This document shows, in pieces, positions 59,061-59,221 of a stretch of DNA of 64,000 nucleotides; position 1 is the first letter of the stretch, and each line of letters opens with the position of its first letter. The position numbers and the translations under genes are program-made. This DNA is from Escherichia coli (GTDB lineage Bacteria > Pseudomonadota > Gammaproteobacteria > Enterobacterales > Enterobacteriaceae). The stretch is from assembly GCF_048403405.1 (NCBI RefSeq), contig NZ_CP183129.1. One strand, given 5' to 3'. Under the pieces are notes generated by a model. That model did no database searches. It was given only the letters and a program-made list of their open reading frames with translations, and was not told the DNA's origin.

Positions 59061-59221
59061 AATTCAAAAAAGGAAGTAAGACAATATGGAGCGCAACGCC
59101 CATCGCTTGACGTTGCATTCACCTGCAAGAGAGATATTGCCCTGAATGGGTAGAGAGTTTATTGACTTCGCTCAAACTTTGCGGCGTTTTTGTATACAGA
59201 CAGCTGGGAAAATTTCTTTTG

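What the first reader, a model, noticed from the sequence alone, without database searches (positions are those of the whole stretch)
59086..59145. 19-codon ORF with a strong SD between the IS200 end and zntB
ATG at 59086, preceded by AAGGAAG 8 nt upstream, opens a 19-codon frame (MERNAHRLTLHSPAREILP) on the plus strand, convergent with zntB. It may be a micro-protein or leader, or a chance ORF.
Basis: seen in the sequence. Interest (0 to 1): 0.25.

Follow-up and report, generated by a model that had tools for sequence, protein, structure and literature searches.

The report
Mirror-image ORF opposite FnrS small RNA
The 19-codon reading frame is real in the sequence, but it lies on the strand opposite the well-known oxygen-responsive regulatory RNA FnrS and its promoter, and its ribosome-binding look is most likely just the mirror image of that RNA's target-binding stretch, so it is ordinary.

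Summary
The ORF exists as described: ATG 59086, 19 codons, TGA ending 59145, AAGGAAG at 59070-59076. It is not in empty spacer. The minus strand 59007..59126 is the FnrS small RNA (Rfam RF01796, 134.8 bits against a threshold of 60), identical to K-12 fnrS b4699.

- **Overlap.** Codons 1-14 are antisense to FnrS nt 41-1. Codons 15-19 and the stop run through the FnrS promoter, with codons 17-18 on the inferred -10 box.
- **SD and ATG.** AAGGAAG complements FnrS nt 51-57 and the ATG complements nt 39-41. Both lie in the open linker that represses target mRNAs.
- **Conservation (113-115 Enterobacterales species).** Every unconstrained position of the FnrS-overlapping part, including four-fold degenerate sites, is at least 90% conserved. 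Conservation ends at the FnrS 5' end.
- **ORF length.** It ranges from 15 to 80 codons. Only 19 of 113 species have 19.
- **Substitutions.** They preserve the RNA stem (24 of 25 variant cells) and are mostly non-synonymous.
- **Transcription.** No promoter-like site lies upstream, and no same-strand gene lies downstream.

A 2024 microprotein catalogue lists this peptide as hypoxia-induced, which matches FnrS regulation. Verdict: by-product of a known sRNA gene. An IS200 sits in the FnrS terminator U-tract here.

The parts
59086..59145 (+). The 19-codon ORF (MERNAHRLTLHSPAREILP plus TGA). Codons 1-14 are antisense to FnrS nt 41-1. Codons 15-19 and the stop are antisense to the FnrS promoter, positions -2 to -19.
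59070..59076 (+). SD-like AAGGAAG, the complement of FnrS nt 51-57 (CUUCCUU) in the single-stranded linker.
   Evidence: Kept in 80 of 113 species. Degraded in Yersinia, Serratia, Rahnella, Photorhabdus and Arsenophonus.
59007..59126 (-). FnrS small regulatory RNA gene. The 5' end is at 59126. The 3' end falls within the U-tract 59007-59012.
   Evidence: Rfam RF01796 matches 59009..59126 at 134.8 bits (gathering score 60), E 2e-25. It is identical to K-12 ncRNA fnrS b4699.
59089..59120 (-). FnrS stem-loop 1 (nt 7-38). This is the part that gives the ORF its near-invariant codons 2-12.
   Evidence: In the stem, 24 of 25 variant cells keep pairing, and 3 CG-to-UA changes are compensatory.
59065..59087 (-). 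FnrS open linker (nt 40-62), which carries the target-pairing sequence. The published loss-of-pairing mutants fnrS-II (nt 47-49) and fnrS-I (nt 57-59) lie within it.
   Evidence: Fold. Mutant positions from PMC8595263. Duplex with the sodB translation-initiation region.
59007..59032 (-). FnrS intrinsic terminator: hairpin 59013-59032 followed by a U-tract of 6 (59007-59012). K-12 has 8 U; the tract is shortened here by the IS200 insertion.
59134..59139 (-). Inferred -10 hexamer CAATAT of the fnrS promoter (-13 to -8). It is read as codons 17-18 (ATA TTG, Ile-Leu) of the ORF.
   Evidence: Sequence. The I/L-like residues recur at these codons across species. The promoter assignment is an inference.
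59162..59175 (-). FNR box TTGAGCGAAGTCAA, centred about 42 bp upstream of the FnrS 5' end.
   Evidence: It matches the ChIP-chip and EMSA FNR site AAAGTTTGAGCGAAGTCAATAAAC reported 'upstream of dbpA' (PMC1802558), which is the reverse complement of window 59157-59180. In species with longer ORFs it is read in frame as F-I-D-F-A-Q.
58298..59006 (-). IS200 (IS200C-type, tnpA 58405..58863) inserted in the A/T tract of the FnrS terminator. It is not part of the ORF story, but it abuts it.

Best explanation
The interval is the 5' half and promoter of fnrS. This gene encodes the FNR-activated, Hfq-dependent small RNA that represses mRNAs of aerobic and oxidative metabolism under anaerobiosis by pairing at or near their translation-initiation regions. 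FnrS is transcribed on the minus strand from 59126 to about 59007.

Its single-stranded linker (nt 40-62, ...CAUAUUGUCUUACUUCCUUUUUU...) is built to be complementary to Shine-Dalgarno/AUG regions of its targets. The complementary DNA strand therefore necessarily reads like a translation-initiation region (AAAAAAGGAAGUAAGACAAUAUG). From that mirror-image ATG the plus-strand frame runs through the complement of FnrS stem-loop 1 and into the fnrS promoter, where a TGA happens to stop it after 19 codons in E. coli.

The ORF is thus a by-product of the sRNA gene and is most likely neither transcribed in the sense direction nor translated.

Shown here: the identity, position and strand of FnrS, and the pattern of conservation. 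Taken from the literature: FnrS function, the mutant positions, FNR binding and translational repression of targets. Inferred: that the SD/ATG resemblance is a consequence of the anti-initiation-region design, and that no peptide is made.
For: - **Identity of FnrS.** Rfam RF01796 matches 59009..59126 on the minus strand at 134.8 bits against a gathering score of 60. K-12 annotates ncRNA fnrS at the identical sequence, in the same zntB-fnrS-ynaL-dbpA order.
- **FNR site.** The published FNR ChIP/EMSA site coincides with 59157-59180.
- **No third-position relaxation.** In 115 Enterobacterales loci, the 23 positions of codons 1-14 not fixed by my search pattern are at least 90% conserved at all three codon positions. 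The third positions of ACG, TCA and CCT are conserved in 115 of 115 loci.
- **Conservation boundary and ORF length.** Conservation stops at the FnrS 5' end, not at the stop codon. ORF length ranges from 15 to 80 codons, and only 19 of 113 species have 19.
- **Substitution pattern.** 24 of 25 variant cells in the SL1 stem keep RNA pairing, including compensatory CG-to-UA changes. The same changes are mostly non-synonymous in the ORF: R3H in 12 species, A5V in 5, plus T9A, L10S and H11Y/L.
- **Other conserved residues.** The remaining conserved 'residues' map to DNA elements: Ile-Leu is the inferred -10 box and FIDFAQ is the FNR box.
- **Pairing region.** The SD-like motif and ATG lie in the fold-predicted open linker, which contains the published pairing mutants at nt 47-49 and 57-59.
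- **Resemblance to a target.** The plus-strand stretch 59060-59086 is 21/27 identical to the sodB initiation region, sodB being a published FnrS target.
- **No sense-strand context.** No sigma-70-like promoter was found on the ORF strand, with or without IS200. No co-oriented downstream gene exists.
- **Peptide properties.** The peptide is hydrophilic (GRAVY -0.72) and the ORF uses the rare codons AGA and ATA.
- **Ribo-seq.** The ORF is absent from the held part of the Stringer 2021 Ribo-seq sORF table.
Against: - The AAGGAAG-plus-ATG arrangement is conserved across most Enterobacteriaceae, Erwiniaceae and Pectobacteriaceae. That is also what a real start site would show.
- Fesenko et al. 2024 (PMC11188072) place this exact peptide in their evolution-based 'coding' set. 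They report it up 3.55 log2-fold under oxygen deprivation in E. coli 536.
- My species set was retrieved with a pattern that fixes the ATG and 15 other positions, so ATG conservation was not independently tested.
- The restricted FnrS(39-62)/sodB duplex of -13.7 kcal/mol is matched by 76 of 1000 composition shuffles, so it is weak on its own.
- Absence of translation was not measured. The simple promoter scan also misses the real fnrS promoter, so it is not sensitive.
Confidence: 0.93

Rival explanations
1. A genuine 19-aa micro-protein is translated from a so far undescribed antisense transcript of the fnrS locus. The two strands would then encode an sRNA and a peptide.
For: A moderate SD sits 9 nt from an ATG. 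The motif is conserved in 80 of 113 species. The peptide is listed as a predicted coding, hypoxia-responsive intergenic smORF in PMC11188072 Table S7.
Against: ORF length is not conserved (15-80 codons), and the peptide sequence beyond residue 14 is free to vary. Third codon positions are not relaxed. Substitutions obey RNA pairing and are mostly non-synonymous. No promoter-like site was found. The hypoxia induction is what FnrS itself shows. [quoted passage not shown] The ORF was not found in the held parts of two Ribo-seq tables. It uses the rare codons AGA and ATA.
Confidence: 0.04
2. A type I toxin-antitoxin-like pair, in which FnrS acts in cis as the antisense repressor of a small toxic peptide encoded opposite to it, as in Ibs/Sib.
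For: The architecture resembles such pairs superficially: the sRNA fully covers the initiation region and the first 14 codons of a short ORF on the other strand.
Against: The peptide is hydrophilic and basic (GRAVY -0.72, best 11-residue Kyte-Doolittle window 0.31, no membrane helix, and 'nonTM'). Type I toxins are, to my knowledge, typically hydrophobic membrane peptides. ORF length and C-terminus are not conserved. FnrS has a documented trans-acting regulon. No promoter was found for the ORF strand.
Confidence: 0.01
3. A leader peptide or upstream ORF that controls a downstream gene by attenuation or translational coupling.
For: The ORF is short and has an SD. A terminator-like hairpin on the plus strand (59137..59153) overlaps its stop codon.
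Against: Nothing lies downstream on the plus strand to regulate. The next 1.06 kb is the convergent zntB, and the next plus-strand gene is dgcM at 60400, which has its own upstream intergenic region. The hairpin is weak (6 pairs, 3 of them G-C) and lies in the fnrS promoter spacer.
Confidence: 0.005

Closest known systems
FnrS (Rfam RF01796; E. coli K-12 fnrS b4699), the FNR/ArcA-activated Hfq-dependent sRNA between zntB (ydaN) and dbpA
   Same: The sequence is identical to K-12 from the terminator stem through the promoter. The covariance-model match is full length. Synteny is the same. The FNR box is the same. The fold has the same parts: stem-loop 1, open linker, stem-loop 2 and terminator.
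   Different: In this strain an IS200 has inserted into the terminator U-tract, leaving 6 U instead of 8. The finding's ORF is on the opposite strand and is not part of the described gene.
Intergenic smORF family 'Escherichia_169489' (NC_008253.1_ORF.88496) in Fesenko et al. 2024, The Cryptic Bacterial Microproteome (PMC11188072)
   Same: The 19-aa sequence is exactly the same. The catalogue lists cluster size 1909, nonTM, no domain, and logFC +3.55 (FDR 1.7e-12) under oxygen deprivation.
   Different: That catalogue treats it as a predicted microprotein on evolutionary-rate criteria. It does not mention sRNAs or Rfam in its main text. My analysis attributes both the conservation and the hypoxia signal to FnrS on the other strand.
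Dual-function sRNAs (SgrS/SgrT, Spot 42/SpfP, AzuCR)
   Same: A small ORF and a base-pairing sRNA share the same DNA.
   Different: In those cases the ORF is on the sRNA transcript itself. Here it is on the complementary strand and would need a separate transcript, for which there is no evidence.
Type I toxin-antitoxin loci (such as Ibs/Sib and TisB/IstR-1; named from my own knowledge)
   Same: A short ORF has its start region covered by an antisense sRNA.
   Different: There is no hydrophobic peptide, no conserved ORF and no promoter for the ORF strand. The sRNA has an established trans regulon.

Membership tests
FnrS sRNA (RF01796) | Sequence and structure match to the family covariance model above the curated gathering score | tested here: met
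   134.8 bits against a gathering score of 60, E 2.3e-25, model positions 1-119 of 119, minus strand 59009..59126.
FnrS sRNA (RF01796) | Location between zntB (ydaN) and dbpA, co-oriented with both | tested here: met
   RefSeq annotation of strain 4621, strain C4 and K-12. K-12 carries the ncRNA feature fnrS at the aligned position.
FnrS sRNA (RF01796) | FNR binding site at class-II distance upstream of the 5' end | tested here: met
   TTGAGCGAAGTCAA lies at 59162-59175, centred about 42 bp upstream. It is identical to the ChIP-chip/EMSA FNR site of PMC1802558.
FnrS sRNA (RF01796) | Rho-independent terminator with a poly-U tail (the 3' module typical of Hfq-dependent sRNAs) | tested here: met
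   An 8-bp G+C-rich stem is followed by TTTTTT. The tail is shortened to 6 U by IS200, against 7-9 U in nearly all of 94 homologues.
FnrS sRNA (RF01796) | Anaerobic induction, Hfq binding and repression of targets | not testable with these tools
   Literature only.
Bona fide small-protein gene | Start codon with an SD at suitable spacing | tested here: met
   AAGGAAG lies 9 nt before the ATG and pairs with the anti-SD at -6.3 kcal/mol.
Bona fide small-protein gene | ORF length and stop codon conserved among orthologous loci | tested here: not met
   Length ranges from 15 to 80 codons in 113 species, and only 19 have 19 codons.
Bona fide small-protein gene | Protein-level constraint: excess of synonymous or third-position change | tested here: not met
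   Free third positions are as conserved as first and second positions, with four-fold sites conserved in 112-115 of 115 loci. The observed changes are mostly non-synonymous and preserve RNA pairing.
Bona fide small-protein gene | Transcript on the coding strand | tested here: inconclusive
   No sigma-70-like site was found in the window or in the K-12 context, but the scan is crude. The published RNA-seq signal is of unstated strandedness.
Bona fide small-protein gene | Ribosome occupancy or initiation peak, or a detected peptide | not testable with these tools
   The ORF was not found in the held, truncated parts of the Stringer 2021 and Fesenko 2024 Ribo-seq tables. The Weaver 2019 supplements are not held.
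Leader peptide / attenuator | Co-oriented regulated gene immediately downstream | tested here: not met
   zntB is convergent, and the next plus-strand gene is 1.25 kb away.
Type I toxin | Hydrophobic, membrane-inserting peptide | tested here: not met
   GRAVY is -0.72 and the best 11-residue Kyte-Doolittle window is 0.31. The catalogue marks it 'nonTM'.
Dual-function sRNA | ORF on the same strand as the sRNA | tested here: not met
   The ORF is on the plus strand and FnrS on the minus strand.

The most novel reading that the evidence does not exclude
The plus strand opposite fnrS is transcribed at a low level, for example from an unrecognised promoter near ynaL. The transcript would be translated into the 19-aa peptide and would also act as a perfect-complement sponge for FnrS, giving a two-strand sRNA/antisense-peptide module at a conserved anaerobic regulator. 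The hypoxia-induced signal in the 2024 catalogue would then be partly real.
Probability: 0.03. Interest if true: 0.5.

Novelty: already known. Interest (0 to 1): 0.08.

Why it matters
For the biology of this locus it matters little, because what is there is the well-described fnrS gene. The useful point is methodological.

An sRNA that blocks ribosome binding is complementary to SD/AUG regions. Its opposite strand therefore automatically carries a good-looking SD and ATG, and the sRNA's own conservation makes the resulting ORF look like it is under purifying selection. With unstranded counting it also looks regulated.

This exact ORF appears in a published microprotein catalogue as a hypoxia-induced candidate. 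That catalogue's main text does not mention sRNAs or Rfam, and I did not find a filtering step against known sRNA genes. Filtering on both strands, and testing where conservation ends, would flag this class of candidate.

The IS200 insertion in the FnrS terminator is a small natural experiment on how much U-tail an Hfq-dependent sRNA needs.

Tried and rejected
- **Unavailable papers.** The primary FnrS papers (Durand & Storz 2010 PMC2941437; Boysen 2010 PMC2856277), CopraRNA (PMC3773804) and the mBio version of Weaver 2019 are not held. Mutant positions and target statements therefore come from secondary papers.
- **Literature search for the peptide.** A full-text search for the peptide string found nothing in main texts. 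It was found only in a supplement.
- **Ribo-seq tables.** The Stringer 2021 supplementary table has no entry for the peptide or for K-12 coordinates 1409110/1409167/1409169, but the stored file is truncated. The bioRxiv version of Weaver 2019 has no held supplements.
- **Bias in the comparative set.** The genome-wide pattern search used AAGCGATGNNCGNTGNNNTCCATA, which fixes the ATG. ATG conservation could therefore not be tested independently, so I restricted the codon-position analysis to unfixed positions. Two hits, a cyanobacterial MAG and a Dechloromonas MAG (L043, L062), were chance matches and were excluded.
- **Duplex calculations.** The unrestricted RNAduplex of whole FnrS with the sodB initiation region gave an unrealistic long-loop duplex of -45.2 kcal/mol. 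The restricted calculation is only weakly better than shuffles. I do not lean on either.
- **IS200 as a driver of plus-strand transcription.** I considered this and rejected it. art200 starts at IS nt 153/154 and is 90 nt long, so it should end near IS nt 64. The left-end bidirectional terminator at IS nt 12-34 lies between it and the ORF.
- **Plus-strand folding.** The fold showed no unusual stability (z +0.47).
- **Family and homology searches.** These were not run on the peptide: it is 19 aa, below the 20-residue minimum of the profile-family scan, and the homology searches would not have changed the verdict.

Full report
**1. Observation**

The plus strand reads AAAAAAGGAAGTAAGACAAT ATG GAG CGC AAC GCC CAT CGC TTG ACG TTG CAT TCA CCT GCA AGA GAG ATA TTG CCC TGA.
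- The ATG is at 59086 and the TGA ends at 59145, giving 19 sense codons, MERNAHRLTLHSPAREILP.
- AAGGAAG is at 59070-59076, with 9 nt to the ATG.
- It pairs with the 16S 3' end at -6.3 kcal/mol, which is decent but weaker than the sodB SD at -9.1.
- The ORF is convergent with zntB (59222..60205, minus strand) and lies just right of an IS200 (58298..59006).

On its own it is not unusual: 13 ATG ORFs of 19-60 codons with a comparable SD-like motif occur in the 64-kb window.

**2. What is really there**

An Rfam scan of 57500-60800 gives a full-length match to FnrS (RF01796) on the minus strand at 59009..59126. It scores 134.8 bits against a gathering score of 60, E 2e-25.

The window is E. coli. 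The same DNA is found in 5394 of 5426 complete E. coli genomes. The K-12 record annotates ncRNA fnrS (b4699, 1409129..1409250) between zntB and ynaL/dbpA. The window is identical to K-12 from the terminator stem through the promoter, to just short of zntB. PGAP-annotated genomes simply do not carry the ncRNA feature, which is presumably why the interval looked empty.

Window position x corresponds to FnrS nucleotide 59127 - x. This gives the following map:

| ORF feature | Element on the minus strand |
|---|---|
| ATG | Complement of FnrS nt 39-41 (CAU) |
| AAGGAAG | Complement of nt 51-57 (CUUCCUU) |
| Codons 2-12 | Complement of stem-loop 1 (nt 7-38) |
| Codon 14 | Crosses the FnrS 5' end |
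| Codons 15-19 and stop | fnrS promoter, -2 to -19 |
| Codons 17-18 (ATA TTG) | Inferred -10 hexamer CAATAT |

The FNR box TTGAGCGAAGTCAA is at 59162-59175. It is identical to the site that bound FNR in ChIP-chip and EMSA 'upstream of dbpA' (PMC1802558).

**3. Why the plus strand looks like a start site**

The FnrS minimum-free-energy fold has stem-loop 1, an open linker (about nt 40-60), stem-loop 2 and the terminator. The published pairing mutants fnrS-II (C47-U49) and fnrS-I (U57-U59) lie in that linker, and fnrS-III (G4, G5) lies at the 5' end (PMC8595263). [quoted passage not shown]

A sequence made to pair with SD/AUG regions has, as its complement, an SD/AUG region. Consistent with this, plus strand 59060-59086 is 21/27 identical to the sodB initiation region (UAAU..AAAGGA.AGU.AG.CAAU). 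FnrS nt 39-62 can pair with sodB -19 to +5 at -13.7 kcal/mol, but 76 of 1000 shuffles do as well, so I treat this as illustrative only. This step is inference supported by the literature, not a measurement.

**4. Conservation test**

One scan of 100,044 species genomes with a degenerate FnrS pattern returned 120 loci. After removing two chance hits and the E. coli duplicates, 113-115 Enterobacterales loci were usable, from Escherichia to Yersinia, Photorhabdus, Arsenophonus and Edwardsiella. The pattern fixes the ATG and 15 other positions, so only the remaining positions are informative.

- **No codon periodicity.** In the FnrS-overlapping 41 nt, the 23 free positions are at least 90% conserved regardless of codon position. 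The four-fold degenerate third positions of ACG, TCA and CCT are conserved in 115/115 loci, and that of GCC in 112/115.
- **Conservation ends at the RNA 5' end.** Residues 1-14 are nearly constant. Residues 15 onward vary freely (REILP 14 times, GVILH 7, RESLP 6, and many others).
- **ORF length varies.** It ranges from 15 to 80 codons. Only 19 of 113 species have 19, and 17 have 15.
- **Residual conserved 'residues' are DNA elements.** These are the Ile/Leu-type pair at the inferred -10 box and FIDFAQ / NVDIAQ / IDVDQ where longer frames read through the FNR box.
- **Substitutions follow RNA pairing.** In the SL1 stem of 95 distinct sequences, 24 of 25 variant cells keep a standard pair: GC to GU 11 times and to AU once; UG to UA 5 times and to CG twice; CG to UA 3 times, changed on both sides; CG to UG twice; AU to GU once. 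In the ORF the same changes are mostly non-synonymous (R3H, A5V, T9A, L10S, H11Y/L).
- **The SD-like motif is not universal.** It is kept in 80 of 113 species and decays to AAAAG, GAAAG or GAGAAAA in Yersinia, Serratia, Photorhabdus and Arsenophonus.

All of this is the signature of an RNA and promoter constraint, not of a protein.

**5. Expression context**

- The consensus scan finds no sigma-70-like promoter on either strand in 58800-59300, or in the IS-free K-12 context. It also misses the FNR-dependent fnrS promoter, so it is not sensitive.
- Upstream on the plus strand in this strain is IS200.
- Its antisense RNA art200 starts at IS nt 153/154 and is 90 nt long, so it should end near IS nt 64.
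- The IS200 left end carries a bidirectional terminator at IS nt 12-34, which is window 58973-58995 (PMC4513863). IS200 should therefore not feed transcription into the ORF.
- Downstream there is nothing for a leader to regulate.
- The peptide is hydrophilic (GRAVY -0.72) with no membrane segment, and the ORF uses the rare codons AGA and ATA. This argues against a type I toxin.

**6. Prior listing**

The exact peptide is in Table S7 of Fesenko et al. 2024 (PMC11188072) as NC_008253.1_ORF.88496, cluster Escherichia_169489. It is listed with logFC +3.55 (FDR 1.7e-12) under oxygen deprivation and smaller changes in other stresses.

Their candidate set is defined by RNAcode and/or thresholds on dN, dS and distance. 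[quoted passage not shown] The underlying data are RNAtag-Seq.

Strong induction by oxygen limitation is the defining behaviour of FnrS. The simplest reading is that the catalogue entry reports FnrS itself. This is inference; a stranded recount would settle it. The peptide was not found in the held, truncated parts of their Ribo-seq table or of the Stringer 2021 table.

**7. Comparison, novelty and verdict**

The locus is a member of the FnrS family on every feature I could test. The ORF fails the tests for a conserved small-protein gene, a leader peptide, a type I toxin and a dual-function sRNA (see the membership table).

- Novelty: already known.
- Interest: low, 0.08.
- Residual probability that the peptide is real: about 3-4%.

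**8. Side observation**

IS200 is inserted in the A/T tract of the FnrS terminator.
- K-12 and strain C4 have 8 A.
- The window, strain 4621 and strain MEW have 4 A + IS + 6 A. AST205 has 4 + 7, and UCPROB-002 has 3 + 9.
- Eight of the 5426 complete genomes carry the IS here. A ninth hit has IS200 inside dbpA instead.
- Nearly all of the 94 homologues have 7-9 U.
- The different splits could reflect independent insertions into a preferred T-tract or homopolymer slippage after one event. I did not resolve this.

Noticed in passing
window 58298..59012 (junctions at 58297/58298 and 59006/59007): IS200 is inserted inside the U/A tract of the FnrS intrinsic terminator, leaving a 6-U tail where K-12 has 8 and nearly all of 94 homologues have 7-9. 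Eight of 5426 complete E. coli genomes carry IS200 here, with different A-run splits (4+6, 4+7, 3+9). The IS200 left-end bidirectional terminator lies about 11 nt beyond the shortened tail. The effect on FnrS termination and Hfq binding is unknown.
   Followed up: partly
window 58873..58996, minus strand: The Rfam RF01405 (STnc490) model matches the IS200 left end on the tnpA-sense strand (143 bits). Ellis et al. 2015 (PMC4513863) equate STnc490 with art200, the RNA antisense to the tnpA 5'UTR. The Rfam model may therefore be oriented as the 5'UTR rather than as art200.
   Followed up: partly
window 59137..59153, plus strand: A terminator-like hairpin (TTGCCCTGAATGGGTAG followed by AGAGTTTATT) lies in the fnrS promoter spacer between the inferred -10 box and the FNR box, and it overlaps the ORF stop codon. 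It is present in K-12 too. It is probably chance or related to promoter architecture.
   Followed up: no
window 58063..58236 (minus strand) and about 60219..60266 (minus strand): Two annotated small proteins flank the region. One is the 57-aa proline-rich YnaL, between fnrS and dbpA, detected by tagging in PMC6001520. The other is the 15-aa YnaN, just upstream of zntB. In this strain IS200 separates ynaL from fnrS.
   Followed up: no
L017, L049, L053 (MAGs labelled 'Proteobacteria bacterium'): Three metagenome-assembled genomes labelled only 'Proteobacteria bacterium' carry Enterobacteriaceae-type FnrS sequences; two are E. coli/E. albertii-like and one Enterobacter-like by the downstream ORF sequence. 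They are presumably Enterobacteriaceae bins or contamination.
   Followed up: no
L128 (E. coli EC190329), locus 1..1077: In this strain IS200 is inserted inside dbpA, which is annotated as two pseudogene fragments, rather than in the FnrS terminator. This shows a second IS200 target within 1.5 kb.
   Followed up: no
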